A DNA stretch of 32,000 nt from assembly GCF_000023965.1 (NCBI RefSeq), contig NC_013202.1:1380001-1412000 (forward strand), written 5' to 3'. The notes under the pieces are model-generated. The model saw only the letters and a program-made list of their open reading frames with translations. It was not told where the DNA came from and searched no databases. The translations under genes and the position numbers were made by a program. Positions 12,862 through 30,159 of this stretch are shown here, one piece after another. The stretch is from Halomicrobium mukohataei DSM 12286 (GTDB lineage Archaea > Halobacteriota > Halobacteria > Halobacteriales > Haloarculaceae). Each line of letters opens with the position of its first letter. The stretch's first letter is position 1.

Positions 12862-13656
12862 GGCACTGTTAGTTCTGGAGCTCCTGAGCTGGCGTTCGTC
12901 CGTCGAGTGCTTGGTTCGGCCGTTCGTGGTTGTAGTGGTGTCTGAAGCGTCGTAACCATTGTCTGGCGCTCGATTGACTGCCCCGCCAGAAGGTGTGGAA
13001 GCCGTCGATTCGCATGGTGACGGTCTGGAACACTTTTCGATGTGGTTCCGAGTTCGATAGTCGAGCCGACCGCTCAATTCGTGACGCGCGAGGGCAGTCA
13101 GATAGCCGCTATCATCGACGAGAAACTCTGTATTGTCGATATCGTGTTTCTCGGTGAGTCGATGCAAAAACGCCGTCCTCAGAAATCTTCGATTTCTGAT
13201 GTGCGAACGAGAGCAGCGCTCTCGTTAACGCCGCGGGGTCAGTCTCGCGGCGGCTGAAAACGTCAATGTCGAGCAATAACTTTGAGTCGGTGTCGATGGC
13301 AGCGTAGAGCCACTTTTTCTCACCATCAACCTCGATCTGCTTCTCGTCGACCGCAACCCGCGACGGCTCCGCCGTCGGTGGGTGGCTCTGTGCTTCAGAC
13401 AACGTATGCACCCAATTCCAGACCGCCCCGTGAGAACGATCGACAACCAACAGTTCTAAGATCACCACCGTCTCCCTGATCGACAGCCCCGCCGTGTGGA
13501 GACGTACCCCAAACCGCCGGACGGGTGTCGGGGTGCGCTCGTTCTCCCAAACGTCATGACTGTCTATTTCCAACGTTTCTCTGAGCAGGTTTGCGAGTGA
13601 TATGAACACCTCTCGCTACGGCCTGCTCGTTCCTCAATCCCTCAACTAGACAGTGC
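12862..13656 (-). mobile_element. IS6-family insertion sequence (795 bp) with intact target duplication
   Basis: Termini GGCACTGTTAGTT (12862-) and the reverse complement of 13641-13656, GGCACTGTCTAGTT (one indel). Perfect 8-bp direct repeats GTTTGAAT at 12854-12861 and 13657-13664; 8 bp is the IS6-family target duplication length. Confidence 0.85.
12869..13609 (-). pseudogene. IS6-family transposase, disrupted by a 55-nt insertion and a 1-nt deletion
   Basis: ERTPTPVRRFGVRLHTAGLSIRET...SRVAVDEKQIEV...WLYAAIDTDSKLLLDIDVFSRRETDPAA, then the frame is lost at 13174-13228. It resumes in a second frame (AFLHRLTEKHDIDNTEFLVDDSGYLTALAR...NHIEK), then is lost again near 13031-13033 (expected TGG reads TG). 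A third frame reads FQTVTMRIDGFHTFWRGSQ...HHYNHERPNQALDGRTPAQEL, ending at stop 12869-12871. Confidence 0.8.
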
Positions 13657-13702
13657 CGTTTGAATACGCCTGTCGAACCGCGGACAGTCCGTTCGCACGT
13701 GG

Positions 13703-14833: not shown

Positions 14834-14835
14834 CG

Positions 14836-15861
14836 TCACCAGCCTCCATTCGGCGCTTGCGATTCGATGAGGGCCGAGAGTTCGTCCGAAGAGAGCAGGT
14901 CGGCCTCTTCGGACGTGTACTCTCTGGTGAGCGAGTTGGAGATGTTCGACGTCGTCGTGTAGCTACTGAGGTCGATCTCGGGATACAGGACGAACATCTT
15001 GTCTTCCTCTTTCGTCTGTCGACGTTCGTCCGCTGATATCAGTTTCTCGTGGGTCCGCTCGGCCGGCCGCGGACCGATGATCTCGATCTCGATGTCCTCG
15101 GGATCGTAGCCCGCTCGCGGTGCGTAGGTGTCCCGGATGACGACCGCAAGATCCTCAAGTTTGAACGCCGGCATCTTCAGGATGAACACCTCGCCGCCCT
15201 CCAGCCGTGCATGCGACTTGAGGACGAACTCAACGGCACGCTCAATCGACATGAGGAACCGGGTCATATCGGGATCGGTGACGGTCAGCGGCCCACCGTC
15301 CCTGACTTGATCGATGAAGAGGGGAACGACCGAACCGCTCGACCCGAGGACGTTGCCAAACCGGACGCATCCGAACTTCGTCTGTCGGTTCCCCTTGTAC
15401 GTGTTGGCTGCGATGACCAGCCGTTCGGAGAGCAGTTTTGTCGCTCCCATCACCGACGTTGGGTTCGATGCCTTGTCCGTACTGATTGCCAGCAGCGATT
15501 CGACGTTCTCTTCTCGCGCTGCGTTGATGAGGTTCTGTGTCCCCTGGATGTTGGTCTGGACCGCTTCGAACGGATTGTACTCGCTAATTTCGACGTGTTT
15601 CAGCGCTGCGGCGTGAAAGACGACGTCTACATCTTCGACTGCCATTTCCAATCGCGATTCATCGCGGATATCACCCAATAGCATCCGGAGTGTATCACTG
15701 TGTTCTTCATGTTTCCGTTCGAGATGAAAGAGCCCCTCCTCGTCGTTGTCGAAGACGCGAACGGCCGCGGGATCCCGCTCAAGACACTGTTTCACGATCC
15801 CGGAGCCGATCGAGCCACAGCCGCCAGTAACGAGAATTTTCTTCCCCTCAAGTGAGGACAT
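14836..15861 (-). CDS. UDP-GlcNAc 4,6-dehydratase of the CapD/FlaA1/PseB/PglF type
   Basis: KILVTGGCGSIGSGI, ISTDKASNPTSVMGATKLLSE, and RFGNVLGSSGSVVPLFIDQVRDGGPLTVTDPDMTRFLMSIERAV. First gene of the minus-strand operon. Confidence 0.9.
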   Translation of the reverse strand: MSSLEGKKILVTGGCGSIGSGIVKQCLERDPAAVRVFDNDEEGLFHLERKHEEHSDTLRMLLGDIRDESRLEMAVEDVDVVFHAAALKHVEISEYNPFEAVQTNIQGTQNLINAAREENVESLLAISTDKASNPTSVMGATKLLSERLVIAANTYKGNRQTKFGCVRFGNVLGSSGSVVPLFIDQVRDGGPLTVTDPDMTRFLMSIERAVEFVLKSHARLEGGEVFILKMPAFKLEDLAVVIRDTYAPRAGYDPEDIEIEIIGPRPAERTHEKLISADERRQTKEEDKMFVLYPEIDLSSYTTTSNISNSLTREYTSEEADLLSSDELSALIESQAPNGGW

Positions 15862-16228: not shown

Positions 16229-17164
16229 GCCTTGTTGAATCCAGGGATGGCGTAGTGATCACTCCTTGATGGCTTGTTCGAGGTTGTAGACGGCCACGGT
16301 CAGCACCAGTTCTCTGAATTCGCGGTACCACGCGCTCGGCCCGACAGCGGAGCCGAATAGGCGGTTGATGGCCGAGAATGCGGTCTCGGCCATCCATCGC
16401 TGCCCGTAGAGATCGCTGTCCAACCGTGCGTTGTGGGCGTGATCGTAGTGCGCAAACAGCCGGTGTCTGATGACCGGCCGGACGCCTTCGGAACGGAGTG
16501 CGTCCCGCAGTGACTGATCGTCGTAGCCTTTGTCACCGGCGAGATCTCGATTTCAGCGGTATTGCGCAGTGCCACCCGACGGCCGACCTGTGTATCGTGG
16601 GGCCAGTGTGCCGAACAGTGGAGGTCGAGGACGGCACACGACGCCGTGTCTACGAGGGCCGTCGTTTTCAGCGTGCGTATGTGGCGATCCGACCGGTCGA
16701 CGTAGTGGCTGGATGCCGCTTCACGGTCGAAAAATGTGGCATCCAGCGCCCCATGATTGCCGGGATCGCAGCGGGTCGCCGACCGACGGAGCAGTTGCCG
16801 CCAGATACGGGTCGGCACCCGTTCGAAGGACCGCCACAGCGTCGAGGGGGCCGGGAAGTCGGTCCGAGCCAACTGTAACAGGCCACGAACGCGATCCATC
16901 TCACTCGCCCAATCGACGATCTCGCGGTAGCTCGCGTCCATGTGGTTCCGCAAGAAATGCAGCGTCAGATGCTTCCAATCCGCAAATCCGTTGCCAGCCG
17001 GGTCACTCACCACCGCCGTGGGGCTGGCGGCACAGCGTTTTTGAGCCAGTGATGCGGCTTGTGTAACGAAGCGGAAGAGTGGCATTGGTACATTCACTCT
17101 CTCCGCTTCGCTTCCACCTTCACAGCAACGCTATCCGCTCGCAGTCATCGGATTCAACAGAGTA
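16229..17164 (-). mobile_element. IS5-family insertion sequence (about 0.94 kb)
   Basis: Terminal IRs GCCTTGTTGAATCC (16229-16242) and GGATTCAACAGAGT (17150-17163), with core TGTTGAATCC perfect. Contains one DDE transposase gene. No target duplication recognisable, and the boundaries are uncertain by a few nt. Confidence 0.7.
16259..17085 (-). pseudogene. IS5-family (DDE_Tnp_1) transposase with one frameshift
   Basis: The N-terminal part MPLFRF...DREAASSHYVDRSDRHIRTLKTTALVDTASCAVLDLHCSAHWPHDTQVGRRVALRNTAEI is in one frame. The conserved C-terminus LAGDKGYDDQSLRDALRSEGVRPVIRHR...GQRWMAETAFSAINRLFGS...VYNLEQAIKE is in the -1 frame and ends at TGA 16259-16261. The switch is within 16541-16556, with no slippery heptamer. 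Confidence 0.75.
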
Positions 17165-17244: not shown

Positions 17245-18204
17245 ATGCATAGAATAATCCACCGCCCACTTGAAATCCTCCGTGAAGGCGGTCCGAGAGC
17301 ACTCTTCCGGAAGTCGTGTTCGAAACTCAATAGGCAGTTTTATCGGAACTTCACTACCGGTCATTTCAATTCTTCGGGAACAAGCGTGTTCGAACGGGAC
17401 TGGGACAATCTCCTAATCCTAGATGCTTGTCGGTACGACATCTTCGAAGAAGTGAACTCTTTCCGCGGTGACCTCGAGACACATTGCTCACTCGGATCAT
17501 CGAGTCGTGAGTTCGTCAGGGCGAACTTCGCTGACCGGACACTCCATGACGTTGTTGTCGTATCAGCCAATGGATGGTATAAAAAAATATCCGACACCTC
17601 TGGAAAAATAAATGTTGATGTTCACGATCTGATTGTCGTAGATAACAAAAGCGTAGAGTCCCACAAGTCTGATATTGACACGGTGCGACCGGATCGTGAA
17701 TGGATTCTCCCCGAAGCAGTTACAAATGAAGCCTGCGATGCCATCGAACGATATCCGAACAAACGTATTATAGTCCACTATCACCAGCCCCATACGCCGT
17801 ACATCGGACCGACAGGCAAGGAGTACGCAGGGGAGCTACCGCAGAAGTTTGACGGCAAAGAGGAGTTACGGACATCCCATGAGATTCTCCGCAGAGCGTA
17901 TCGAGAAAACTTAGAGATTGTTCTGGAGGAAGTCGGAGGTCTCTATCCAGAACTGACCGGGAAAACGGTCATCTCCGCAGATCACGGCGATCTACTTGGG
18001 GAACGTGGGTTTCCGATTCCTGTCCGGGAATACGGGCACCCCTCCCAGGCGTATCGTGAGGAACTCGTCCGAGTCCCCTGGTTCAACTTACCATTCGATG
18101 AGCGAAAAGAGATTATAGCGGAGTCACCATCGGATAATAGGAAAAACGATCTCTCCATTGACGAGGTCAATGAACGACTGAAGAAACTGGGATACAAGAT
18201 TTGA
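17245..18204 (+). CDS. Uncharacterised cytoplasmic alkaline-phosphatase-superfamily (sulfatase/PglZ-like) protein, paralogue 1
   Basis: RDWDNLLILDACRYD (metal-ligand Asp region), SLGSSSREFV (candidate nucleophile segment), HYHQPHTPYIGPTG, SADHGDLLGE and VPWF. No TM segment. The AT-rich box TTTTAAAAAATAT (about 17216-17230) lies 15-29 nt upstream of the ATG. Confidence 0.55.
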   Translation: MHRIIHRPLEILREGGPRALFRKSCSKLNRQFYRNFTTGHFNSSGTSVFERDWDNLLILDACRYDIFEEVNSFRGDLETHCSLGSSSREFVRANFADRTLHDVVVVSANGWYKKISDTSGKINVDVHDLIVVDNKSVESHKSDIDTVRPDREWILPEAVTNEACDAIERYPNKRIIVHYHQPHTPYIGPTGKEYAGELPQKFDGKEELRTSHEILRRAYRENLEIVLEEVGGLYPELTGKTVISADHGDLLGERGFPIPVREYGHPSQAYREELVRVPWFNLPFDERKEIIAESPSDNRKNDLSIDEVNERLKKLGYKI

Positions 18205-18224
18205 GGAGGACTCGTTCCGGTTGT

Positions 18225-19451
18225 ATGATCGAAACACTTGAAAGCGCGGTTAATCGAAAAAGCACCCGTCAGGAGCGGTGGATATTCTATTCAATTATTG
18301 TGATTAGCGTCCTCTCGTCCTCGGTGATTCTCCCAAGGCTGGCCGGTATCGTGCTTCTCGTTGGCACGTATGCCGTGTTTATCCTGATAACCTTCTCTCG
18401 ACGGGGATACTTCCTGATAGGTCCTCACTACGCCTTTTTTGCACTAGCTTTGCTATCGTCTTTAATGGTCTTGAACCACGTGATGGGAAAGGTCGGAGAT
18501 ATCACTCACGTTCTTTTCCCGGCAGTCACGGTCTTTCTATTGGTTGCGAATCTATTCGTCATCCCTCACGTGATCAATAGCGAGTACTTTGCTTTCATCA
18601 CCAGCCGCGTCTCTGCTGTCGTCGTTATCGTTGGTTTACTGATGCTTGTTTTTGGTGACATCAGTTTACTCTGGTTTGAACTTCAAAACTGGCCGGGCAC
18701 TGACCAAGTGTATTATTTCGGGGAGCTTCACCCATTGCGGTCGATCTATCGTGGAAGCCAGAACAACACAGCTGTCCTGTTATTCGTGGGGTTCCTGGCG
18801 TCAATCTATCAACTTGTCCAAGAGAAAACCTCTGTGTACATCGCGTTATCGGTGATAAACGGCGTCGGGTTGTATCTAACCCACAGTCGTGGCGGAATCG
18901 GCGTAGCCCTGATCGGTTTTTCCCTCATTTTTCTGTATTTAGTGTATAGGTACGAGGCCGTAGGGGTAGTCACCATATCGGGGGGAGTGCTATTCTTGGC
19001 AGGTATATTGACGTATTCCAGTATCTTCCCCGGGCCGAGCTGGTTCGACGTCGTGAATTTGAATGACCGACAGGAGATCTGGCGTGCGGGATACAAAGCC
19101 TTCAAGCAAAAGCCTGCTCTAGGATACGGGGTGAAAGAGACGGCTGATATTATAGAACTGTATCTTCCTGAAAACAAGCGAGGGCACTCCATTCACAATG
19201 CCTATTTTCGAATATTTTTATATACTGGATTTATTGGGGGTATAACATATATGGCCTTTATTTTCTACAGCCTCATAGATACTGTTTTTGACGATAGAAT
19301 CAATATCTTTATTTTCGCCCTCGCTGTAGCATTTGCGGTTCATCACTTTCAAGGGGGAGCACCGCTCTTTGGAGCAAATTTCAAATCTGTCAGTATCGGA
19401 CTAACCTTTGGGTACCTCATAAACGGTCGATACGACTTCTCCGAGGGCTGA
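18225..19451 (+). CDS. Wzy_C / O-antigen-ligase-family polytopic membrane protein (polymerase, ligase or O-oligosaccharyltransferase-like)
   Basis: About 10 hydrophobic segments. LYLTHSRGGIGVALIGF and the loop EIWRAGYKAFKQKPALGYGV...GHSIHNAYFRIFLYTGFIGG are Wzy_C hallmarks. ATG 18225 is preceded by GGAGGA (18205-18210). Very AT-rich. Confidence 0.75.
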   Translation: MIETLESAVNRKSTRQERWIFYSIIVISVLSSSVILPRLAGIVLLVGTYAVFILITFSRRGYFLIGPHYAFFALALLSSLMVLNHVMGKVGDITHVLFPAVTVFLLVANLFVIPHVINSEYFAFITSRVSAVVVIVGLLMLVFGDISLLWFELQNWPGTDQVYYFGELHPLRSIYRGSQNNTAVLLFVGFLASIYQLVQEKTSVYIALSVINGVGLYLTHSRGGIGVALIGFSLIFLYLVYRYEAVGVVTISGGVLFLAGILTYSSIFPGPSWFDVVNLNDRQEIWRAGYKAFKQKPALGYGVKETADIIELYLPENKRGHSIHNAYFRIFLYTGFIGGITYMAFIFYSLIDTVFDDRINIFIFALAVAFAVHHFQGGAPLFGANFKSVSIGLTFGYLINGRYDFSEG

Positions 19452-20700: not shown

Positions 20701-21709
20701 CCGGTTCGCTCTTGCGAAGGAGATTGTTGATAGCGATGGCTGGAGCTGAAAGTCGAAGAGGGCAAGGGCACCGCGCTAGCGGTGCCCGATATGTTCCCAA
20801 TAAGCCGGTTCGTGTCGGAATCGGCTGCAGCGGACCTGCTGGAACAGGTTCGCTGGCGTGATGGCGTCGAGTGCCCCCGCTGCCGTTCTGACCTGACGGT
20901 CAGAAACGGCAGCTACCGGGTGTATCAACGGTATCTGTGTAAGAATTGCGGTCGCACGTTCAACGACAAGACCGACACGATCTTCGCTCACTCGAAGCTG
21001 AAGCTCAAAGAATGGTACTTCACGATCTACGTGTTCTTACGGTTCAACACGAGTATTCGGCAAATCGAGGCAGAGCTTGATTGTTCCTACCGGACGGTGA
21101 GACGGCACGTCGAGCAGTTCGCCAGAACTCTCGACGCGCCTTCGATTACGCTGTCTGGACCGGTCGAAATCGACGAAGTGTACGTCTCTGCTGGTCTCAA
21201 AGGCCGCGAGCGTGACCAGGAGTCGCGCTCGCGTGGCCTGTCCACGCGTGGACGGGGATCGTACGACGGCGACAAACCGCCGGTGTTCACGCTCGTCGAT
21301 CGTGGTTCGGACGAGCGGTACGTCGTGCCAGCGAAATCCGCTGACGAATCGACCGTTCGACTCCTGCTTGCTGACCACGAAGAGGAGTCACTGACCGTCT
21401 ATACGGACGGATTTCGGGCCTACGACCCACTAGAAGACGACGACTCATTCACCCGCAAATACGTCGTCCACAGCGACGGTGAATACGCTGATGGCGAAGT
21501 ACACGTCAACGGCTGCGAGAGCCACGCGTCGCTGACGCGACGGTGGCTCTCGCCCCATCGAGGCGTCTCGAAAGACAAGCTAACGCCGTATCTCAGAGCC
21601 TTCGAACTCCGCCGTGAACTCTACAGAAAACCAGGTGACGAAGCACTCAAACATGCTCTCAACGCCGCACTCTGAAAATCAACAACGTGCTTCACAAGAG
21701 CGACACCGG
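20701..21709 (+). mobile_element. IS1595-family insertion sequence (about 1.0 kb)
   Basis: Imperfect terminal IRs of about 33 bp: CCGGTTCGCTCTTGCGAAGGAGATTGTTGAT (20701-) versus the reverse complement of 21677-21709, CCGGTGTCGCTCTTGTGAAGCACGTTGTTGAT. Single transposase gene. No clear target duplication. Confidence 0.75.
20791..21675 (+). CDS. IS1595-family transposase (N-terminal zinc ribbon + ISXO2-like DDE domain)
   Basis: LEQVRWRDGVECPRCRSDLTVRNGSYRVYQRYLCKNCGRTFNDKTDTIF (Zn ribbon), and VEIDEVYVSAGLKGRERD...TVYTDGFRAYD. ATG 20791; the tracked GTG 20782 is the alternative. Confidence 0.9.
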   Translation: MFPISRFVSESAAADLLEQVRWRDGVECPRCRSDLTVRNGSYRVYQRYLCKNCGRTFNDKTDTIFAHSKLKLKEWYFTIYVFLRFNTSIRQIEAELDCSYRTVRRHVEQFARTLDAPSITLSGPVEIDEVYVSAGLKGRERDQESRSRGLSTRGRGSYDGDKPPVFTLVDRGSDERYVVPAKSADESTVRLLLADHEEESLTVYTDGFRAYDPLEDDDSFTRKYVVHSDGEYADGEVHVNGCESHASLTRRWLSPHRGVSKDKLTPYLRAFELRRELYRKPGDEALKHALNAAL

Positions 21710-22436: not shown

Positions 22437-23366
22437 ATGTATTCAATAGAGCAAGTAAAAGAGGGTGTAAAAAGCCCCTCGTTGTTTAAAAGGGGGATGA
22501 TCAATATATGTTGGCGTGGCATATCAACGGTATCAAGAAAGATGCTCGGACAAAATGATCCTCCGATCCCCGAACGGGACTGGGACAATTTGCTCCTCCT
22601 GGATGCCTGTCGATACGATCTCTTCGAAGAACTCAATTCGCTTCCGGGCGAACTCAACTCCTACTATTCTGTTGCGTCCAACACGACTGAGTACGTCCAG
22701 AGGACGTTCAATGGGAATGAATTCCCGGACATCGTCTGCGTCACATCAACTCCGAAGTACTACAAGCCGAATGTCGAAGACAGTTTTCACGACATCATCC
22801 ATGTCTGGAGGGAAGATTGGAATACAGAACTTGGGACGATTACTGCAGAGACGATGAACAAGCACGTCCTCCAAGCGATTGACGAGTACCCGAGTAAGCG
22901 GATTCTCGCACATTACATCCCTCCACACCAGCCTTTTATTGGACCAACCGGCCAAGAAATTCCTCACGAGGTTAGATTCTCCGGGGACGTCATCGCTCAG
23001 GACACGGAAGCACCGAACCTGTGGGGGAGCATTCGAAACGGAGAAATTGAGCCGGACCGAGTCAGGCAAGCCTACCGGGAGAACCTCGAACTGACCCTCC
23101 CAGCGATTGAGGAGATCCTTGACGAACTTCCTGGGAAGACCGTTGTAACGTCCGACCACGGTAATGTGTTCGGATCATTCAACGAGTGGGGCGTCGTCGG
23201 GCATCCGCCATATCGTCACATTGAACCGTTAATCAAAGTGCCGTGGCTCGTTCACTCCAATGGAGACCGGAAGGATATCTACGAAGGATCAATCGACAGA
23301 GACAACACGGATATAAACCACGAACTCGTGGAAGAGCGACTCGGGGATCTCGGCTACCTCGAATAG
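22437..23366 (+). CDS. Uncharacterised cytoplasmic alkaline-phosphatase-superfamily protein, paralogue 2
   Basis: Collinear with 17245-18204: RDWDNLLLLDACRYDLFEE, SVASNTTEYV, HYIPPHQPFIGPTG, AYRENLELT, TSDHGNVFG, VPWLV and ERLGDLGY. Confidence 0.55.
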   Translation: MYSIEQVKEGVKSPSLFKRGMINICWRGISTVSRKMLGQNDPPIPERDWDNLLLLDACRYDLFEELNSLPGELNSYYSVASNTTEYVQRTFNGNEFPDIVCVTSTPKYYKPNVEDSFHDIIHVWREDWNTELGTITAETMNKHVLQAIDEYPSKRILAHYIPPHQPFIGPTGQEIPHEVRFSGDVIAQDTEAPNLWGSIRNGEIEPDRVRQAYRENLELTLPAIEEILDELPGKTVVTSDHGNVFGSFNEWGVVGHPPYRHIEPLIKVPWLVHSNGDRKDIYEGSIDRDNTDINHELVEERLGDLGYLE

Positions 23367-24116
23367 CCGCTCAAGTAGACGAGGAAGAGCCAGATTCTGA
23401 ATTGGCTACTCATCCTCGTTCTGACCGGCAAGCCCGGTACCCCCACATGAACGCCTCGGGTCCCGTTTCGTACATCGAGGGGTGGCATGCGTTGCAAGCG
23501 TAGTCATCGCCCATCGTCTCCGACATGTGATCACGAAGTTCGTCAACTAATATTTCCGACGTTCGAGCGAAGTGCCGACCGGATCCACTAACAGGGAGAG
23601 GAGGAGCAAGTCATGGTGGCCGTAGTTCAGGCTTAGACAACGCACTGGCGGAACGGTTGAGGGCTCTGAAACCGCCTGAATCGATGGTTCAGTGCTTGCT
23701 AACCAAGCGACCAGTATGAGCGTGTTAGCAGTTAGGAACAATCCTCAACGAGACGAATAATTCGATATAAAAATATAATTTATTATAATATCGGGAAGAT
23801 TAGAATGGGAGAATCGACGAGACACTGATTCCCGATCAAACCCTCAAACACAGTCATGCTCGCTCTGTTGTTCATCTAGATGCTCAGCCTCGTCCTCACT
23901 CGGCAGAAGACGCTGTCGGCCATCCCAGCACCAATTCTCTTTGCTTGGATCGTCGCACCAGACAGATTTCGCGCCGACTGGATACTCACAGAACTCGCTG
24001 AAAATCGCTTCGGCAGACTTGCGAAGACATTCTTCGAGCTACTATAGATTCCAAAAAAGGCCGATAATTCCATTGGGAGTCGGTGACTTTATTCTGGCTA
24101 CCGAACACCACCGCAT

Positions 24117-26441
24117 ATGAGCGATGAGGGCGACGTGAACGCGCTTCTCGATGAGCGTCCGGATCTCCGAGACGCCCTCGATACAGTTATGTATGTCGAC
24201 GAACAATATGACACTTGGACGTTCGAAGACGTACCGATCGCTTCCGGTCCATTCGGTGAACTCGTTTCCAGCGGTGTCGTAGAGTCTGTCGGTAACGAGT
24301 ACCGACTCACGAACCCTGACGTCACGGCAGCGGCGCTCTCAAGTGGCCCAACAGACCAAGCGGAGTCGCTCGATTTCGGCGATCCCCTCTCTGGATTCGA
24401 GTGGCCAATGTTCGACCGAATAACCTCCCTTGCACTCACCGCCGCGCTCGCCGTCGTCGCACTCGTTCGCGCCCACCCTCTCGGAAGCGTCTACCGGGGT
24501 GGTAACGTCGTCCTCTCGGGCAACGATCCCTACTACTACCGGTACTGGGTCGAGCGGGTCCTCGCGGAGAGCCAGTCGGTGTTCAGTCTTGACACCCTCG
24601 CTGCGTTACCAGGCGGTGTCACGAATGGCGAACCACTGCTGGTCGCGACGCTGTGGTGGGTCTCGGAACTCCTCGGTGACGGCGCGGCTGTCGTCGGCGA
24701 CGTGATGGCGTGGTACCCCGTCGTCACGGCAGTCGTCACGGCGATTTTCGTCTACCTGCTGGCAGTCGCTGTTACCGGCGACAGACGCGTCGGTCTCGCG
24801 GCAGTCCTCCTCTTCGCGATTATCCCCGGCCACGCAATGCGGACCAGCCTGGGTTTCGCGGATCACCACGCCTTCGACTACCCGTGGCTGGCGGCGACGG
24901 CCTACGCGCTGACGGTACTCGCAAGCGTCGACCGGGACGCAGTCACGACCTCGAAAACGTGGCTCGCGAGCGCCCTCCTCGGGATCGTGATCGCCGGCCA
25001 GACGCTGGCCTGGGAGTCCGCGCCGCTGCTCATCGCGGCGGTCGGCCTCGCAGTCGCCGCTGTCGCCCTGGCAGCGGTCGATCAGGGTGAGTCCCCGCTC
25101 GTCCCCGGAGCGCCGATCCTCACCGGCCTCACGATCGCTGCTGGCCTCGCCGCGGCGGGCCACATCTTCGTCGGCTGGCACACGCCACGCGTCGCGTTCT
25201 CGCCGGCGCTGGTCCTCGGTGGGGTCGCCCTCGCACTCCTCGTCGCCGAAGCCGTCCACCGGACGACCGACGATGCGCGCCACCTCCTGGTCATCGATGC
25301 CGTTCTCGCTCCGATTGGCATCCTCACCTTCCGCGAAGCTCGCCCGGAAGACTGGGAGGCGCTCCTGCGGGGCACCGGACGGATCACGGCCGAGCGCAAC
25401 ATCGCCGAGACGGTCGGCCTGTTCGATCCGGACTCCCTGGGAGTCTTGCTCTTGCTGGGGTTTACGCTCGTCATCGCGATCCCGGCGATGGTCGCTGGCG
25501 TCCAACGTGCTCGAACGGCACCGAAGTGGGCGGTGCCGACCGCGTACGTCTGGTACTTCTTCGGACTCGCGACGCTGTCGGTCCGTTTCGTCGGCGAACT
25601 CGCGCCGGTCCTCGCGGTGTTCGCGGGCATCGGTTTCGTGCGACTCGCGGCCTGGATCGACGCTGTCGAGGCGCTCTCGGTCGATGCGACCCGCGCGGCG
25701 CTCCCTGGACTGACCGTGCCGGATCGACGGACGCTCGGGACGCTCACCCTGATCTTCCTGCTCGTCGGCAGCCTCGGAATCGTCCAAGTGCCGGTCAAGA
25801 CCGGCCAGCTCACGGTCGAGGACAGCACCTACCAGAGCGCTGCCTACGTCGCGAACCACTCGGCCCAGCTCAACGAATCCTATCCGGAGAACTACGTCCT
25901 GAGCCAGTGGGGTCGCAACCGCGTGTACAACTACTTTGTCAACGGTGCATCGGAGAGTTACAGCTACGCTCGACAGACGTACGCCGAGTTTCTCGCGAGC
26001 CCCAATGCCGACGAGTGGTACAGTCGGTTCGACGGCCGCGTCGGCTACGTCGTCCTCTCCGAGGACGTCAACACCACCGGTGGGACTGCCTACGCACACC
26101 TCACAGACCACTACGGGAGTCGAACCGCAGATCGGGACGGACTCGCTCACTTCCAGCCACTGTACGTCACGGCAGGCGGCGAGAAACTCACCTACCAGGT
26201 CGTCCCCGGTGCGAACCTGACGGGGCAGGTCGCGCCCAACGAGACAGTCACAGTCCAGACGGACGTGACGATCCCTGGTGCGTCGTTCACGTACGAACGA
26301 CAGACGACGGCCGACGCGGCCGGTCACTACAGCGTCCGCGTTGCCAACCCCGGCACGTACACCATTGAGACGGCCAACGAGACGCGGGAAGCGACCGTCC
26401 AGGCCGGCGCTGTCCGGAACGGTACGGCTGTCGAAGGCTGA
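24117..26441 (+). CDS. aglB: STT3/AglB-family oligosaccharyltransferase homologue with a non-canonical WWDYG position
   Basis: About 100-aa cytoplasmic N-domain followed by about 13 TM segments. First-loop motif GNDPYYYRYW (aa 135-144), DHH (aa 249-251) and TIXE-type NIAE (aa 428-431). The WWDYG position reads SQWGRN (aa 596-601, nt 25902-25919). Short C-terminal domain ending in a carboxypeptidase-regulatory-like beta-sandwich. TATA-like TTTATT at 24088-24093. Confidence 0.8.
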   Translation: MSDEGDVNALLDERPDLRDALDTVMYVDEQYDTWTFEDVPIASGPFGELVSSGVVESVGNEYRLTNPDVTAAALSSGPTDQAESLDFGDPLSGFEWPMFDRITSLALTAALAVVALVRAHPLGSVYRGGNVVLSGNDPYYYRYWVERVLAESQSVFSLDTLAALPGGVTNGEPLLVATLWWVSELLGDGAAVVGDVMAWYPVVTAVVTAIFVYLLAVAVTGDRRVGLAAVLLFAIIPGHAMRTSLGFADHHAFDYPWLAATAYALTVLASVDRDAVTTSKTWLASALLGIVIAGQTLAWESAPLLIAAVGLAVAAVALAAVDQGESPLVPGAPILTGLTIAAGLAAAGHIFVGWHTPRVAFSPALVLGGVALALLVAEAVHRTTDDARHLLVIDAVLAPIGILTFREARPEDWEALLRGTGRITAERNIAETVGLFDPDSLGVLLLLGFTLVIAIPAMVAGVQRARTAPKWAVPTAYVWYFFGLATLSVRFVGELAPVLAVFAGIGFVRLAAWIDAVEALSVDATRAALPGLTVPDRRTLGTLTLIFLLVGSLGIVQVPVKTGQLTVEDSTYQSAAYVANHSAQLNESYPENYVLSQWGRNRVYNYFVNGASESYSYARQTYAEFLASPNADEWYSRFDGRVGYVVLSEDVNTTGGTAYAHLTDHYGSRTADRDGLAHFQPLYVTAGGEKLTYQVVPGANLTGQVAPNETVTVQTDVTIPGASFTYERQTTADAAGHYSVRVANPGTYTIETANETREATVQAGAVRNGTAVEG

Positions 26442-26904: not shown

Positions 26905-28311
26905 ATGCAACTCATCGACGACGAAGGGAACGTCTTCGGACGCGTCAACGTCATCGACGGGCTCGTGGTCCTCCTGGTTCTCGCTGTCGTGGTTGCCGGT
27001 GTCTCGCTCGTCTTCGGGAACAACGAGCAATCCGAACCGGACCTCCCGACGACGAACGTCACGCTCGATCTCGGTCCCCAACCCGATTACGTCGTCGCGG
27101 AGATGAACCAAGGCGACTCCTACAGTCCCGGCGATAATTCCAATCTCACAATCACGGACATCTATCTCTCACCACAGGACGATCAGACGCACGTCACCGT
27201 CCGTGCTGAGATCCAGGATCGGCCAGACGACAACAGCGATGGTCCCACCTACGCTGACGGTCTCCTTCGCCTCGGCCGTACACTCGATATTGCCACGAGT
27301 CGCTACGAAGTTAGCGGCCAGATCCGTGCCATCGGCGGCGGAACCTCTCTTGATCGAGAGACGACCACTGTCGTCGTTCAGGACACAGTCCCGGCAACTG
27401 ATGCTCGTGCAATTACGACTGGCGATGAGATCCGACTCGCGGGACGGACCATCGCCACGGTAACGGACGTAGCCGCGTACCCGACGAATAAATCGGCGCA
27501 ACGAACCGTCTACGTCGAAGCCGAACTCGAGACGTACGCCCAGCGGGGCGAGCGTCGCTTCGGGAACACGCAACTCCGTCGCGGTCAGACAGTCACCCTC
27601 CCAGCGAGCGAGTACACGATCGACGGCCGACTCGAACGAGTCGGGGGCGGTCTCGATCGCGGGGAGGTCGACGTGCTCGTCGAGAGCACCGTCGACGTCG
27701 AAACGGCAAACCGAATCGCCGAAGGTGACATCGCGACGGTCGCCGGACACGAAACAGCTGAAGTACAGCGGGTCACGACGTACGCGACGGGGAATCCCGA
27801 CAAAGCGCACGTGTTCGTCGGGATCACGCTTCAGACGCTATCGGACGACCAGTACCAGCAGTTCGGAAGCACGCACGTCCAGCGGGGCAACAACGTCGAA
27901 ATCGAGACCGAGAGCTACGCACTGTCGGGACCGATCCGTCGCGTCGGCGCACTCGAAGAACGTGGTACGCTCAGTAACCGTACCGTCACGCTCCGGATGA
28001 CCGACATCCGCGAGGATACGACGGACGCGATCGATGTGGGCATGACCGAACACTCGGGTGGCACGACCGTCGCCCGTGTGACCCGCGTCGACATTGACCC
28101 AGCGGTCATCATCGCCACAGACGACAGCGGTTCTGTGAACGTCGTCGATCACCCGTTCCTCCGTGATGTCACACTCACGACGGAGCTGCGGGTCAGAGAA
28201 ACGACCAGCGGCGTCCGGTTCAAGGGCGACACGATCAGACAGGACTCGACGGTCGTGCTCGATTTGGGGACGATCACCGTCCGGACCGAGGTCGCCAGTA
28301 TCGGCGGGTGA
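26905..28311 (+). CDS. Membrane-anchored DUF4330-like protein with four tandem repeats of about 100 aa
   Basis: MQLIDDEGNVFGRVNVIDGLVVLLVLAVVVAG matches the DUF4330 N-terminal signature plus TM helix as I remember it. Four repeats each end in a similar motif: LGRTLDIATSRYEVSGQIRAIGGG, LRRGQTVTLPASEYTIDGRLERVGGG, VQRGNNVEIETESYALSGPIRRVGAL and DSTVVLDLGTITVRTEVASIGG. Confidence 0.7.
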   Translation: MQLIDDEGNVFGRVNVIDGLVVLLVLAVVVAGVSLVFGNNEQSEPDLPTTNVTLDLGPQPDYVVAEMNQGDSYSPGDNSNLTITDIYLSPQDDQTHVTVRAEIQDRPDDNSDGPTYADGLLRLGRTLDIATSRYEVSGQIRAIGGGTSLDRETTTVVVQDTVPATDARAITTGDEIRLAGRTIATVTDVAAYPTNKSAQRTVYVEAELETYAQRGERRFGNTQLRRGQTVTLPASEYTIDGRLERVGGGLDRGEVDVLVESTVDVETANRIAEGDIATVAGHETAEVQRVTTYATGNPDKAHVFVGITLQTLSDDQYQQFGSTHVQRGNNVEIETESYALSGPIRRVGALEERGTLSNRTVTLRMTDIREDTTDAIDVGMTEHSGGTTVARVTRVDIDPAVIIATDDSGSVNVVDHPFLRDVTLTTELRVRETTSGVRFKGDTIRQDSTVVLDLGTITVRTEVASIGG

Positions 28312-28926: not shown

Positions 28927-29139
28927 ATCCACCGGGGGTCGGTGACTCTGTTCTCCCCAGCGAGGACGGCGCTCAAGTGCGAGACAGTTCAGCGTGGTCG
29001 TACGGTCACATTCGACCTGGGCGAGCAGACAATCCGGGCGACGGTCGTCTCGCTGTAACGGGACACTACGATTTTGCGACGCTCTATTTCTCAGGATCTC
29101 TTTCTGTCGGTCACTCTCTCGTTGACACTCTATTCTCAA

Positions 29140-29165
29140 ATAATTGTGCGTCCGACAATTATATT
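29140..29165 (+). promoter_or_regulatory. Palindromic operator overlapping a TATA-like box upstream of the wHTH gene
   Basis: Perfect inverted repeat ATAATTGT-N7-ACAATTAT (29140-29162). AATTATATT (29157-29165) is centred about 27 nt upstream of ATG 29189. Confidence 0.4.
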
Positions 29166-29188
29166 GCGGTAGGCGACGTACAGTTTGT

Positions 29189-29710
29189 ATGGACGAGTTC
29201 GACCCTGCTCCTGAGCCCGATCGCCAGCGGTGGCAAGCGGGCACGGACACGTTCGGGCGGGTGTACGACGTGTTGCTCGGGACGACGGCACCCACGCCGT
29301 ACGCCGAGATCGCGGAGACGGCCGACTGTTCGCCGAACGCGGCAAAGAAACACCTCGATCGCCTCACGGAGATGGACATCGCTCGTGCCGACACGGACGG
29401 ACAGCCCGCCCGGTACGCGCGCAACGACGCGTATTTCGAGTGGCAAGAGGCCAGTCGGATCGCTCGCGAGCACAGCGTCGACGATATCGTCGAACGCGTC
29501 CACGAACTCGAAACGAAGCGTTCGGCATACGAAGAACGGTTCGATGCGACCGATCCGTCGGGAGTCTCGGCGTTCGACGCCGACGGCCACGACGCAGTAC
29601 ACGAGCGAATGGCCGCGATCGGCGACTGGCAAGGGATCGTCCGTGAGATTCGCCTGTACGAACTCGCGCGCCAGATCACCCAGAACGACGGCCACCTCAT
29701 CCCAGCGTGA
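29189..29710 (+). CDS. Winged-helix (wHTH) DNA-binding protein, probable transcriptional regulator
   Basis: ATG 29189 is M16 of the tracked ORF. TPYAEIAETADCSPNAAKKHLDRLTEMDIARADTDGQPARYARND has an HTH + wing pattern. Acidic C-terminal helical part. Confidence 0.7.
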   Translation: MDEFDPAPEPDRQRWQAGTDTFGRVYDVLLGTTAPTPYAEIAETADCSPNAAKKHLDRLTEMDIARADTDGQPARYARNDAYFEWQEASRIAREHSVDDIVERVHELETKRSAYEERFDATDPSGVSAFDADGHDAVHERMAAIGDWQGIVREIRLYELARQITQNDGHLIPA

Positions 29711-30159
29711 CGCCGCCCACAGGCCCGTCGGGGACGACCGGTCCCCCGGATCGACAGACACTGCGACTCCTCGAGAAGCATCTCCGTGACGACCCGCTGG
29801 TCGCGGCGACGAGCTTCGAACCGAGTACACACGAGTTGCGCTCGCTCCGGGCCGAACTCGACGCGGACCGATACCCTGTGTCCGTGGTCGACACTCATCT
29901 AGATGTCCGCTGGTTCGTGTCTGGTGATTTTTCCTTTCACTATAACGAGACGCACGACAGCGGCCGATGGGAGTGTCGATGGGATCGCCATCCGAATGAG
30001 CACAACGCGCGACTCCACTTTCATCGACCTCCAGACGGGAACGCCGTCGAAACCCTCTCGCTGGAGGACACGCATCCGCTCGATCTCTATTCGATCGTGC
30101 TTGGCGCGGTCGAAGAACGTATCGACCACCTGTGGGAAGACTCGACCGAGTCCGACTGA
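29707..30159 (+). CDS. Hypothetical protein (150 aa) with a His/Trp-rich segment RWECRWDRHPNEHNARLHFHRPPDG
   Basis: The GTG start overlaps the upstream stop (GTGA, 29707-29710). Acidic composition, whereas the antisense ORFs are Arg-rich shadows. No family recognised. Confidence 0.6.
   Translation: MTPPTGPSGTTGPPDRQTLRLLEKHLRDDPLVAATSFEPSTHELRSLRAELDADRYPVSVVDTHLDVRWFVSGDFSFHYNETHDSGRWECRWDRHPNEHNARLHFHRPPDGNAVETLSLEDTHPLDLYSIVLGAVEERIDHLWEDSTESD

What the first reader, a model, noticed from the sequence alone, without database searches (positions are those of the whole stretch)
24117..26441. AglB/STT3 homologue with the WWDYG motif replaced by SQWGRN and a very short C-terminal domain
The other STT3 landmarks are present in the expected order: GNDPYYYRYW in the first external loop (nt 24519-24548), DHH (24861-24869) and TIXE-like NIAE (25398-25409). 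The sequence context around the catalytic motif also aligns (ENYVLS-[motif]-VYNYFVNG ... AEFLASP ... RVGYVVLSED). At the WWDYG position, however, the sequence is S-Q-W-G-R-N (25902-25919). The only WW in the protein (LWWVSE, aa 179-184) is near the N-terminus, far from the expected position. In PglB/AglB structures the WWD residues bind the +2 Ser/Thr hydroxyl of the N-x-S/T sequon, so this protein should have altered acceptor recognition or be a non-catalytic paralogue. The soluble C-terminal part is only about 175 aa and ends in a carboxypeptidase-regulatory-like beta-sandwich. About 100 cytoplasmic residues precede TM1. It sits directly beside a NulO-glycan cassette, so it could be a dedicated transferase for that glycan with non-standard site specificity.
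Basis: partly seen in the sequence, partly recalled or inferred. Interest (0 to 1): 0.7.

Follow-up and report, generated by a model that had tools for sequence, protein, structure and literature searches.

The report
STT3 paralogue without the WWDYG pocket
This gene is a second, divergent copy of the enzyme that attaches sugar chains to proteins in a salt-loving archaeon; it keeps the catalytic residues but lacks the pocket that normally reads the N-x-S/T signal, so it probably glycosylates other sites, and it belongs to a large family that I found no functional study of.

Summary
Window 24117-26441(+) encodes a 774-aa STT3/AglB-fold protein.

This is a family trait, not a one-off lesion. None of 263 relatives carries WWDxG, against 237 of 237 canonical haloarchaeal AglBs. 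The site is conserved instead as x-W-[G/S/D]-x-N-R, and the DK-motif stretch is also gone. The metal, amide-activating and phosphate-binding residues (D137, D249, H251, E431, R490) are essentially invariant, and dN/dS is 0.18.

The same 3.11-Mb replicon also encodes a canonical WWDYG AglB of 1030 aa with its own agl cluster. So this gene is a paralogue, not the sole transferase.

The link to the NulO cassette is not conserved. The 90%-identical orthologue in a sister strain sits beside a different glycan cassette, and DNA homology starts 43 bp upstream of the ATG.

Across genera the family lies near polyprenyl-phosphate sugar-phosphate transferase or polyprenyl-diphosphate phosphatase genes (5 of 11 loci, against 0 of 81 canonical loci). 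It sometimes lies near PGF-CTERM S-layer-type genes.

Best reading: an active oligosaccharyltransferase that does not need the +2 Ser/Thr and probably uses dolichol-pyrophosphate-linked donors. This is inferred, not shown.

The parts
24117..26441 (+). Complete gene for a 774-aa divergent STT3/AglB paralogue (stop codon included)
   Evidence: ORF. Pfam STT3 and AglB_L1. Structural match to AfAglB-L. Full-length homologues.
24117..24341 (+). Family-specific cytoplasmic N-terminal domain (aa 1-75), winged-helix-like; aa 76-100 form a disordered linker
   Evidence: Conserved in the family (invariant L11, R14, S43, G44, F46, G47, V50). pLDDT about 90, with topology H-H-(strand)-H-strand-strand-H. 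Only weak Foldseek hits, to winged-helix domains (E >= 0.16). No Pfam hit. The family alignment with canonical AglB begins only at family aa 103 = canonical aa 26, so canonical AglB has nothing aligned to this N-terminal region.
24417..25808 (+). Multi-helix GT-C transmembrane domain (aa 101-564)
   Evidence: Family profile positions 105-519 align to AfAglB-L residues 16-454, E 3.5e-23. Helix map of the model.
24519..24548 (+). First external-loop motif GNDPYYYRYW; D137 is the first catalytic Asp
   Evidence: N136 in 264/264 and D137 in 263/264. Aligns to GNDPWYY of AfAglB-L.
24861..24869 (+). DHH, the second acidic/metal-binding motif (D249, H251)
   Evidence: D249 in 264/264, H250 in 263/264, H251 in 256/264. 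Aligns to GFNDHH of AfAglB-L.
25398..25409 (+). NIAE, the TIXE-type motif on external loop 5, with catalytic E431
   Evidence: E431 in 262/264 and I429 in 226/264. Aligns to TIAE of AfAglB-L. The loop has low pLDDT, as expected for a flexible EL5.
25584..25586 (+). R490, the conserved Arg of the Q-x-R-F motif (phosphate-binding Arg in AglB/PglB)
   Evidence: R490 in 264/264. Aligns to QNRF of AfAglB-L and to the invariant R447 of canonical haloarchaeal AglB.
25809..26186 (+). Reduced central-core (CC) unit of the external C-terminal domain (aa 565-690, about 125 aa); no match to the AglB_core-like model
   Evidence: Canonical AglBs carry PF22627 AglB_core-like and this protein does not. The only PDB sequence hit of this region is the minimal CC domain of AfAglB-S2. 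CC units of solved AglB/PglB structures are 152-243 aa (PMC3703281).
25902..25919 (+). S-Q-W-G-R-N at the WWDYG position
   Evidence: Register. Family column counts: S596 250/264, W598 261/264, position 599 G186/S37/D23, N601 227/264, R602 259/264. 0/263 family members have WWDxG against 237/237 canonical AglBs.
26055..26090 (+). Short, variable, gap-rich stretch (aa 647-658) where canonical haloarchaeal AglB carries its DK-variant motif (D..M...K)
   Evidence: Column counts show no conserved D, M or K here. The canonical motif VDWKM...GKFFAP is seen in P0436. The motif is defined in PMC5131992 and PMC3703281. The correspondence rests on the flanking anchors RVGYVV/RYVxV and RLH..GS/RLY.FHGS, matched by eye on the consensus lines.
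26187..26438 (+). C-terminal beta-sandwich, AglB_L1 (P1 unit)
   Evidence: PF18079 at E 3e-8. Aligns to AfAglB-L residues 764-865 and to the canonical haloarchaeal AglB C-terminus.
24074..24116 (.). Left boundary of inter-strain DNA conservation; everything upstream is a strain-specific glycan island
   Evidence: blastn of the window against the LC1Hm locus: homology covers 24074-26432 at 89% identity, and the upstream cassette finds no counterpart.
26905..28311 (+). DUF4330 membrane-anchored protein, a recurrent neighbour of the family
   Evidence: PF14221 at E 1.7e-24. Found within 10 kb in 4/11 family loci and 0/81 canonical AglB loci.

Best explanation
The gene encodes a catalytically competent lipid-linked-glycan transferase of the STT3/AglB (GT-C, GT66) fold. 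It is a paralogue of the organism's canonical AglB. It represents a large haloarchaeal family whose acceptor site has been rebuilt: the Ser/Thr(+2) pocket (WWD plus the DK motif) is gone, while the metal centre, the Asp/Glu pair that activates the acceptor amide and the phosphate-binding Arg are kept.

Proposed mechanism. A glycan assembled on dolichol phosphate or pyrophosphate by whichever variable cluster lies next door is flipped outward. It binds through R490 and the D137/D249/H251 metal site. It is then transferred to a protein nucleophile that D137 and E431 activate, most likely an Asn that does not need Ser/Thr at +2. Likely targets are S-layer-type (PGF-CTERM) surface proteins. The donor is probably pyrophosphate-linked.

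Shown: the fold, conservation of the catalytic residues, loss of the pocket motifs, coexistence with a canonical AglB, purifying selection, and the synteny.

Inferred: enzymatic activity, the Asn acceptor, sequon independence, the Dol-PP donor and the S-layer targets.
For: Fold and catalytic residues:
- STT3 fold and homology.
- D137 263/264, D249 264/264, H250 263/264, H251 256/264, E431 262/264, R490 264/264.
- dN/dS 0.18 against the LC1Hm orthologue, below 0.3 in every region.

Loss of the pocket:
- WWDxG in 0/263 family members against 237/237 canonical AglBs.
- Register supported.
- The DK region is replaced by a short variable stretch.
- The site is not decaying. It is re-conserved as S-x-W-[GSD]-x-N-R-x-Y-N-Y-F-V.

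Paralogue status:
- Canonical AglB P0436 (WWDYG, 859 bits to TIGR04154) shares the 3,110,487-bp contig length with the window's protein.

Donor hint: a Bac_transf phosphoglycosyltransferase and/or a BacA/UppP polyprenyl-diphosphatase gene lies within 8-10 kb in 5/11 family loci and 0/81 canonical loci. Fisher p = 9e-6, not corrected for phylogeny or for the shorter 6-kb flanks of the control loci.

Acceptor hint: large PGF-CTERM surface-protein genes lie next to the gene in Haloplanus, Salinigranum and Halorarum.

Position: the gene sits at the edge of a strain-variable glycan island, as expected for a transferase with relaxed donor specificity.

Precedent for the activity: the Dol-PP-derived glycan on Asn-2 of the Hbt. 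salinarum S-layer glycoprotein is still attached after Ser-4 is replaced by Val, Leu or Asn (Zeitler 1998, as reviewed in PMC2952790).
Against: - There is no biochemical or genetic evidence for any family member. I found none in the searchable literature.
- The Dol-PP and S-layer associations hold for only a minority of the 11 loci. Neither is present in this window.
- The loci are phylogenetically non-independent, and the control loci had shorter flanks.
- The motif register in the core domain is low-confidence by sequence, and one alignment run gave another register.
- I had no model coordinates, so I could not inspect the pocket.
- 23/264 members keep x-W-D and one keeps WWD, so some members may retain part of the pocket.
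- Published surveys report a single aglB in Hfx. volcanii and Hbt. salinarum (PMC5131992 and PMC2952790). The family may therefore be absent from the very species where a second transferase is inferred.
Confidence: 0.5

Rival explanations
1. It is still an ordinary N-x-S/T oligosaccharyltransferase. The +2 hydroxyl would be read by a differently built pocket (for example the retained W598 plus N601, R602 or Y604). The paralogue would differ from AglB only in donor glycan or in regulation.
For: The catalytic residues and W598 are conserved. 23/264 members keep W-D at the site. Paralogous OSTs with distinct donor and acceptor preferences exist in other organisms; T. brucei is cited in PMC5131992. 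The WWDYG region is structurally plastic (PMC3703281).
Against: Two of the three WWD hydrogen-bonding side chains are lost, and so is the DK/MI signature residue, in most members. The published rule says paralogues in one organism share the same pocket type, and this family breaks it. In studied OSTs the pocket's signature residues are needed for activity: mutagenesis showed the second DK/MI residue to be essential (PMC3703281), and the WWDXG motif is described as necessary for catalysis (PMC5131992).
Confidence: 0.15
2. It transfers sugar to a non-Asn protein acceptor, for example by O-glycosylating the Thr-rich stalks of S-layer glycoproteins. No enzyme is known for archaeal O-glycosylation.
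For: [quoted passage not shown] Neighbouring PGF-CTERM proteins have Thr-rich C-termini and few N-x-S/T sequons. The GT-C fold also supports O- and C-glycosylation: there are weak sub-threshold PMT and Dpy19 hits, and DPY19 appears among the structural matches.
Against: The EL5 glutamate (E431) and D137, which in established OST mechanism activate the acceptor Asn carboxamide, are invariant. STT3 and AglB structures are much the better matches. The PMT and Dpy19 scores fall below their gathering cutoffs.
Confidence: 0.12
3. It acts on a non-protein acceptor. It could ligate or release a Wzy-polymerised, Dol-PP-linked surface polysaccharide onto a lipid, another glycan or water.
For: Bac_transf, BacA, Wzy_C and flippase genes nearby resemble bacterial O-antigen or capsule loci. 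About a quarter of family members carry an extra C-terminal LamG (Laminin_G_3) lectin-like domain.
Against: No STT3-fold enzyme is known to use such acceptors (established knowledge). The peptide-side residues of EL5 (I-A-E) are conserved. Adjacency to S-layer genes favours a protein target.
Confidence: 0.12
4. It is a non-catalytic or decaying paralogue, a pseudo-enzyme with a scaffold or regulatory role.
For: It lacks a motif regarded as essential in canonical OSTs. It carries an added cytoplasmic winged-helix-like domain that could serve a non-enzymatic role.
Against: The catalytic residues are invariant across at least 150 clusters at 50% identity. dN/dS is 0.18. The replaced motif is itself strongly conserved.
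Confidence: 0.05

Closest known systems
Canonical haloarchaeal AglB (NCBIfam TIGR04154 'oligosaccharyl transferase, archaeosortase A system-associated'; e.g. Hfx. volcanii AglB, Halomicrobium P0436)
   Same: Same fold and order of landmarks. It shares the GND, DHH, (T)IxE and QxRF catalytic motifs and the C-terminal AglB_L1 beta-sandwich. The profile-profile match has probability 99.9. Both sit at the edge of glycan-biosynthesis clusters.
   Different: It scores 114.6 bits against the 450-bit cutoff. It has no AglB_core-like domain, no WWDxG and no DK-variant motif. Its external domain is about 210 aa, against about 500 aa. It has an extra cytoplasmic N-terminal domain of about 75 aa. Its neighbours differ (Bac_transf, BacA, DUF4330). 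It coexists with the canonical enzyme in the same genome.
Archaeoglobus fulgidus AglB-L (PDB 3WAJ, 3WAK, 5GMY, 7E9S)
   Same: It is the best structural and sequence match among solved structures: TM 0.62-0.64 and profile E 3.5e-23. The TM domain, TIAE, QNRF and the P1 unit all align.
   Different: AfAglB-L has WWDYG (550-554) and an E613/K618 DK variant that form the Ser/Thr pocket (PMC3703281). The window protein has neither, and it lacks the IS unit and most of the enlarged CC unit.
A. fulgidus AglB-S2 (minimal C-terminal domain, PDB 3VU0)
   Same: It is the only PDB sequence hit of the family's core-domain profile. It has the same compact CC layout, with VLS-[motif], A.F and R.V.YVV aligned.
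   Different: AfAglB-S2 keeps WWDYG and a DK variant and has no P1 unit. The match is weak (E 0.13).
The unidentified activity that attaches the Dol-PP-derived repeating-unit glycan to Asn-2 of the Halobacterium salinarum S-layer glycoprotein, and the unidentified AglB-independent 'low-salt' transferase of Haloferax volcanii
   Same: The expected properties match. It would be a second haloarchaeal N-glycan transferase distinct from AglB, tolerant of loss of the +2 Ser (Hbt. salinarum), using a Dol-PP-linked donor and acting on the S-layer glycoprotein.
   Different: No sequence is known for those activities. Surveys report only one aglB in those two species. I could not test whether this family occurs there. 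The Hfx. volcanii low-salt glycan, by my recollection of Kaminski et al. 2013 (not re-read here), is Dol-P-linked. This is a functional analogy only.
Paralogous single-subunit OSTs with divergent specificities (e.g. the three Trypanosoma brucei STT3s; multi-copy archaeal aglB genes with WWDXG variants noted in surveys)
   Same: It follows the same concept: several STT3-type enzymes in one cell with different donor or acceptor preferences. Variation in WWDXG among extra archaeal copies has been noted (PMC5131992 citing Kaminski 2013).
   Different: The eukaryotic paralogues keep WWDYG and the DK motif (established knowledge). Here the whole pocket signature is replaced, which contradicts the rule that paralogues in one organism share the pocket type.

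Membership tests
STT3/AglB/PglB oligosaccharyltransferase superfamily (Pfam PF02516, CAZy GT66) | Sequence match to the STT3 N-terminal (transmembrane) model above the curated threshold | tested here: met
   PF02516 scores 33.2 bits against a 24.5 cutoff, E 5.3e-8, over aa 130-318.
STT3/AglB/PglB oligosaccharyltransferase superfamily (Pfam PF02516, CAZy GT66) | GT-C fold: a multi-helix membrane domain plus an external C-terminal domain resembling solved OSTs | tested here: met
   The AF2 model has pLDDT 86. Foldseek finds AfAglB-L at TM 0.62-0.64 (E 6.5e-21), then yeast and human STT3.
STT3/AglB/PglB oligosaccharyltransferase superfamily (Pfam PF02516, CAZy GT66) | First and second acidic (DXD-type) motifs, the EL5 TIXE/SVSE glutamate and the conserved Arg | tested here: met
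   D137, D249/H251, E431 and R490 align to the AfAglB-L motifs. They are invariant or nearly so in 264 sequences.
STT3/AglB/PglB oligosaccharyltransferase superfamily (Pfam PF02516, CAZy GT66) | WWDXG motif in the external C-terminal domain | tested here: not met
   The aligned site reads S-Q-W-G-R-N. No WWDxG occurs anywhere in the protein or in 263 relatives.
STT3/AglB/PglB oligosaccharyltransferase superfamily (Pfam PF02516, CAZy GT66) | DK or MI motif (or the DK variant with an insertion) completing the Ser/Thr(+2) pocket | tested here: not met
   The stretch between the conserved RVGYVV and RLH..GS anchors is short, variable and lacks a conserved D/E...K. Structural confirmation was not possible because no model coordinates were available.
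STT3/AglB/PglB oligosaccharyltransferase superfamily (Pfam PF02516, CAZy GT66) | Transfers a lipid-linked glycan to Asn of N-x-S/T | not testable with these tools
   This needs genetics, biochemistry or glycoproteomics.
Canonical euryarchaeal AglB, NCBIfam TIGR04154 (archaeosortase A system-associated OST) | Whole-protein score at or above the curated 450-bit cutoff | tested here: not met
   114.6 bits. The same genome's P0436 scores 859.2 bits.
Canonical euryarchaeal AglB, NCBIfam TIGR04154 (archaeosortase A system-associated OST) | AglB_core-like (PF22627) central domain | tested here: not met
   No hit at E <= 1 for the whole protein or E <= 10 for aa 562-774. It is absent from the precomputed domain lists of all 120 listed family hits and present in every listed canonical AglB.
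AglB long-type peripheral (P1) unit, Pfam PF18079 AglB_L1 | C-terminal beta-sandwich matching the model above threshold | tested here: met
   34 bits against a 23.6 cutoff over aa 698-771. It aligns to AfAglB-L residues 764-865.
Other GT-C protein glycosyltransferases (PMT, GT39; DPY19 C-mannosyltransferase) | Match to PF02366 or PF10034 above the gathering threshold | tested here: not met
   PMT scores 14.0 against 22.7 and Dpy19 scores 12.7 against 27.2. DPY19 structures rank below all STT3 and AglB structures.

The most novel reading that the evidence does not exclude
This family is a second, sequon-independent oligosaccharyltransferase of haloarchaea. Having lost the Ser/Thr(+2) pocket, it would transfer dolichol-pyrophosphate-linked (possibly Wzy-polymerised, strain-variable) glycans onto Asn residues of S-layer-type glycoproteins without needing N-x-S/T. 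That is the kind of activity inferred since the 1990s from Asn-2 of the Halobacterium S-layer glycoprotein and never assigned to a gene.
Probability: 0.2. Interest if true: 0.85.

Novelty: new variant of a known kind. Interest (0 to 1): 0.62.

Why it matters
[quoted passage not shown] Here a large family under purifying selection keeps the catalytic centre and replaces that pocket. It is a natural experiment in how acceptor specificity of this enzyme class can be rewired.

It contradicts the published rule that OST paralogues in one organism share the same pocket type.

It also gives a concrete, testable gene for AglB-independent or sequon-independent glycosylation in haloarchaea. That question has been open for Haloferax and Halobacterium, although the family may not occur in those two species. 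Orthologues exist in genetically tractable Haloarcula.

If the enzyme really accepts non-sequon sites and diverse donors, it would also interest glycoengineers.

Tried and rejected
- Exact look-up of the source's own 677-aa gene product (P0002) found nothing. I used the LC1Hm orthologue instead.
- The representative-library search was meant to reach canonical AglBs. Its 150 listed hits were all full-length family members. A canonical AglB was finally obtained from a Halocatena plasmid by tblastn.
The third protein search settled the question.
- Two cluster-member runs, meant to name the organisms of divergent representatives, returned almost only unnamed metagenome proteins. The taxonomic breadth beyond the named genera is therefore unresolved. 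So is the presence or absence of the family in Halobacterium and Haloferax.
- The C-terminus-only hhalign gave a conflicting register onto the DK strand. I rejected it in favour of the WWDYG register, on the evidence and on the topology common to OSTs: last TM helix, one helix, short loop, beta-strand, motif, helix.
- The N-terminal domain has no Pfam hit and only insignificant Foldseek matches to winged-helix domains. No function is assigned.
- The DUF4330 neighbour and ORF 22437-23366 have no PDB or NCBIfam matches.
- Model coordinates are not exposed, so I could not superpose the pocket on 5GMY.
- Two papers that might name the second Haloarcula copy (PMC3911113, PMC3412612) are not held.
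- The idea that the WW at aa 180-181 replaces the missing WWD was dropped. It lies in a predicted membrane helix and is only moderately conserved (W180 80%, W181 58%).


Full report
**What is there.** The ORF at 24117-26441(+) encodes 774 aa. These are GNDPYYYRYW (aa 135-144), DHH (249-251), NIAE (428-431) and SQWGRN (596-601). The only WW is at aa 180-181.

The protein is an STT3 homologue:
- Pfam STT3 scores 33.2 bits (cutoff 24.5) on aa 130-318, and AglB_L1 scores 34 bits (cutoff 23.6) on aa 698-771.
- The best solved relative is Archaeoglobus fulgidus AglB-L, at E 8.5e-10 with the single sequence and 3.5e-23 with a family profile.
- In the profile alignment the whole membrane domain aligns (family positions 105-519 to AfAglB-L 16-454). 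GNDP aligns with GNDPWYY, GFADHH with GFNDHH, IAE with TIAE and QVRF with QNRF. The last about 90 residues align to the P1 beta-unit.
- An AlphaFold2 model built on 35 relatives (pLDDT 86, pTM 0.78) matches AfAglB-L at TM 0.62-0.64. Yeast and human STT3 come next, and the DPY19 C-mannosyltransferase ranks lower.

**It is a family, not a lesion.**
- The first protein search returned 471 hits. The best 120 are full-length relatives at 44-90% identity from Halomicrobium, Haloarcula, Halorientalis, Haladaptatus, Halorarum, Halomarina, Salinibaculum and Halorubellus.
- A profile scan of 1.84 billion 50%-identity representatives found 407 proteins at E <= 1e-30. Its 150 listed hits are all full-length members at E < 1e-203.
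- tblastn also finds copies on plasmids of Haloplanus, Salinigranum and Natrinema.
- About a quarter of members are about 950-1050 aa, carrying an added C-terminal Laminin_G_3/LamG domain.

In a 264-sequence alignment the catalytic positions are essentially invariant:

| Residue | Conserved in |
|---|---|
| N136 | 264/264 |
| D137 | 263/264 |
| D249 | 264/264 |
| H250 | 263/264 |
| H251 | 256/264 |
| E431 | 262/264 |
| R490 | 264/264 |

The window gene and its orthologue in Halomicrobium sp. LC1Hm give dN/dS 0.18, and the ratio is below 0.3 in each of four regions. A decaying or non-catalytic gene is therefore unlikely.

**The WWDYG position.** The site is conserved with a different sequence: [YF]-V-[LF]-S-x-W-[G186/S37/D23]-x-N-R-x-Y-N-Y-F-V-[NS]-G. 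Three observations support placing S-Q-W-G-R-N on S-W-W-D-Y-G:
- A full-length hhalign of the family (A1) against 21 canonical haloarchaeal AglBs (A2) gives probability 99.9 and E 9.5e-37. It aligns 'YVLSQWGRN' with 'GVLSWWDYG'.
- The core-domain profile alone has a single PDB hit, the minimal C-terminal domain of AfAglB-S2 (3VU0). The hit is weak (E 0.13). It aligns 'vlsewgkn' with 'VLSWWDYG', 'aeflas' with 'AKFFTA' and 'R.vgyvv' with 'RkVRYVV'.
- Within the family, 23 sequences have x-W-D and one has S-W-W-D at this column.

The model's secondary structure fits the usual OST layout: last TM helix (537-564), one helix (569-584), a short strand (594-595), then a helix starting at W598.

A C-terminus-only hhalign run instead laid 'YVLSQWG' on the canonical 'YVAVDWK' strand at low confidence. 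I regard this as an artefact of local similarity, but it shows the register is not beyond doubt.

Whichever register is right, no family member carries WWDxG anywhere (0/263). All 237 canonical haloarchaeal AglBs collected carry it, and 225 of them read WWDYG.

**The other half of the pocket.** Canonical haloarchaeal AglB has the DK variant with an insertion, seen in P0436 as VDWKMAETNGNVGGKFFAP. The motif is defined in PMC5131992 and PMC3703281. The conserved anchors RVGYVV/RYVxV and RLH..GS/RLY.FHGS bracket this region. In the family the bracketed stretch is only about 12 residues, variable, gap-rich and without a conserved Asp, Met or Lys. The protein also fails the AglB_core-like model that every listed canonical AglB matches. 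Both elements that bind the +2 Ser/Thr are therefore missing.

**Paralogue, not the sole enzyme.** A canonical AglB recovered from a Halocatena plasmid led to P0436. It is named 'MULTISPECIES: oligosaccharyl transferase, archaeosortase A system-associated [Halomicrobium]' and is 1030 aa long.
- Its longest contig is 3,110,487 bp, the same length as the contig carrying P0002, which is 100% identical to the window protein.
- P0436 has WWDYG at 575-579 and scores 859 bits on TIGR04154, against 114.6 bits for the window protein (cutoff 450).
- It sits in a classical agl cluster of a GT2, several GT1-family (Glycos_transf_1) glycosyltransferases, a flippase and a sulfatase.

**Context in the window.**
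- Positions 2140-15861 carry a nonulosonic-acid cassette: NeuB, PIG-L deacetylase, PglD-like acetyltransferase, methyltransferase, UDP-GlcNAc 2-epimerase, ATP-grasp, HAD, SDR, cytidylyltransferase, GFO/IDH/MocA oxidoreductase, DegT aminotransferase and a PseB/LegB-type dehydratase.
- IS elements interrupt it: ISH3 at 5545-6738, an IS240-like fragment at 13112-13609 and an IS5-like element at 16300-17097.
- A low-GC stretch follows, holding a Wzy_C protein (18201-19451), unknown ORFs and an IS1595 transposase (20782-21675).
- The gene is thus near the cassette but not directly beside it.
- In strain LC1Hm the 90%-identical orthologue is preceded by a different cassette. blastn homology between the strains starts at 24074, 43 bp before the ATG, and continues through the downstream DUF4330 gene.

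The gene is therefore a conserved anchor at the edge of a hypervariable glycan island. It is not a component dedicated to the NulO glycan. A transferase with relaxed donor specificity would be expected in such a position; that is an inference.

**Context elsewhere.** I compared 11 family loci with 81 canonical AglB loci.

| Neighbouring gene | Family loci (n = 11) | Canonical loci (n = 81) | Fisher p |
|---|---|---|---|
| Bac_transf and/or BacA/UppP | 5 | 0 | 9e-6 |
| DUF4330 | 4 | 0 | 1e-4 |
| UDP-sugar dehydrogenase | 6 | 5 | not computed |
| Large PGF-CTERM surface protein | 3 | 2 | 0.011 |

- Bac_transf (a polyprenyl-phosphate sugar-phosphate transferase) occurs in the Haloarcula, Salinibaculum and Salinigranum loci.
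- BacA/UppP (a polyprenyl-diphosphate phosphatase) occurs in the Halorarum, Haloplanus and Salinigranum loci, immediately adjacent in the last two and one gene away in Halorarum.
- The PGF-CTERM genes in the Haloplanus, Salinigranum and Halorarum loci include one annotated as an HVO_2072-family S-layer glycoprotein.
- The control loci have shorter flanks (6 kb against 8-10 kb), and none of the counts is corrected for phylogeny.
- Neither association is present in this window.

By established biochemistry, a phosphoglycosyltransferase makes a pyrophosphate-linked donor and a diphosphatase recycles the pyrophosphate carrier after transfer. The neighbours therefore point to Dol-PP-linked donors. 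Canonical haloarchaeal AglB, by contrast, uses Dol-P-linked glycans (reviewed in PMC2952790 and PMC6591318).

**Most likely function.** I propose an active OST-type transferase with these features:
- It binds a lipid-linked glycan through R490 and the D137/D249/H251 metal site.
- It activates an acceptor carboxamide with D137 and E431, the pair characteristic of OSTs.
- It does not read a +2 hydroxy amino acid.
- It probably acts on S-layer-type surface proteins and probably uses Dol-PP-linked donors.

Only the fold, residue conservation, motif loss, paralogy, selection and synteny are shown. Activity, acceptor and donor are inferred. I put this at about 0.5. Rivals are:
- an ordinary N-x-S/T OST with a rebuilt pocket (0.15);
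- an O- or other protein glycosyltransferase (0.12);
- a transferase acting on a non-protein acceptor or polymer (0.12);
- a pseudo-enzyme (0.05).

**Relation to open questions.** Reviews still list the AglB-independent transferase of the Haloferax volcanii low-salt pathway as unidentified (PMC11407970, PMC8241124). In Halobacterium salinarum the Dol-PP-derived repeating-unit glycan on Asn-2 is still attached after Ser-4 is replaced by Val, Leu or Asn. This is described as unexplained because only one OST gene was found (PMC2952790; PMC6591318).

The family has the properties such an enzyme should have. However, surveys report a single aglB in those two species, and I could not scan their genomes. 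The link is therefore a functional analogy, not an identification.

Earlier surveys noted that more than 30 archaea carry several aglB copies, some with WWDXG variants (PMC5131992 citing Kaminski 2013). The existence of odd copies is thus not new. I found no study that describes this family or tests any member.

**Other anatomy.**
- The roughly 100 residues before TM1 form a family-specific cytoplasmic domain (aa 1-75), conserved and confidently modelled. Its winged-helix-like topology has only insignificant structural matches. A disordered linker follows.
- In the profile alignment the family matches canonical AglB only from family aa 103 = canonical aa 26, so canonical AglB has nothing aligned to this N-terminal region.
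- The source's own gene call (677 aa) seems to start near M98 and would miss this domain.
- The external domain is about 210 aa: a reduced core of about 125 aa plus the AglB_L1 sandwich. That places it between the 'short' and 'long' Archaeoglobus AglB types.

**Verdict.** This is a new variant of a known enzyme kind. It is worth an experiment because orthologues exist in tractable Haloarcula species.

Noticed in passing
window 2140-15861: A complete-looking nonulosonic-acid (legionaminic or pseudaminic type) biosynthesis cassette. It encodes NeuB, PIG-L deacetylase, PglD-like acetyltransferase, SAM methyltransferase, UDP-GlcNAc 2-epimerase, ATP-grasp, HAD, SDR, CMP-sugar synthetase, GFO/IDH/MocA oxidoreductase, DegT aminotransferase and a PseB/LegB-type dehydratase. 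The methyltransferase, ATP-grasp and HAD genes suggest a modified NulO.
   Followed up: partly
window 5545-6738, 13112-13609, 16300-17097, 20782-21675: Four transposase genes or fragments pepper the glycan island: ISH3, an IS240-like DDE fragment, an IS5-like element and IS1595. GC falls to 0.43-0.52 between 17 and 23 kb. The island is absent from the sister strain LC1Hm, so it looks recently acquired or rearranged.
   Followed up: partly
window 18201-19451 (+): A 416-aa membrane protein with a Wzy_C domain (O-antigen polymerase, ligase or PglL-type). It could polymerise repeat units, or it could itself be an oligosaccharyltransferase or ligase. Either role bears on what the STT3 paralogue transfers.
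   Followed up: no
window 22437-23366 (+): A 309-aa ORF directly upstream of the STT3 paralogue with no Pfam, NCBIfam or PDB match. By eye it contains 'LLLDACRYD' and 'TSDHGN', which recall metal-site motifs of the alkaline-phosphatase/sulfatase superfamily. This was not verified.
   Followed up: partly
window 26905-28311 (+); also L001 12386-13798, L002 17532-18656, L004 6355-7476: A DUF4330 protein with an N-terminal membrane anchor and a long external part recurs near the STT3 paralogue (4/11 loci) and never near canonical AglB (0/81). It has no structural or functional annotation and may be a partner or substrate.
   Followed up: partly
window 24117-24410: The source's own gene call for this protein (P0002, 677 aa, 87% coverage) appears to start near M98. 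That would omit the conserved cytoplasmic N-terminal domain, so it is probably a start-site mis-annotation.
   Followed up: yes
L086 (Haloplanus plasmid) 2477-12384; L087 (Salinigranum plasmid) 3512-15074: Plasmid-borne cassettes combine one or two PGF-CTERM S-layer-type glycoprotein genes, the STT3 paralogue, an undecaprenyl-diphosphate phosphatase and, in Salinigranum, a sugar-phosphate transferase and a glycosyltransferase. They look like a portable alternative surface-layer-plus-glycosylation module.
   Followed up: partly
family members P0083, P0085, P0099, P0100, P0116 etc.; plasmid hits H3, H4: A subfamily of about 950-1250 aa carries an extra C-terminal Laminin_G_3/LamG (concanavalin-like lectin) domain after the AglB_L1 sandwich.
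   Followed up: no
window 29134-30125; L001 17153-19119; L089 5641-6649: Pairs of DUF7342 (TrmB-like HTH) and TumE genes lie downstream of the locus in several genomes. They look like small toxin-antitoxin or regulator pairs. No evident link to glycosylation.
   Followed up: no
window 51-1690: An ABC-transporter ATPase (51-713) and a GT2 glycosyltransferase (722-1690) sit at the left edge of the island. They may belong to an ABC-transporter-dependent glycan export route.
   Followed up: no
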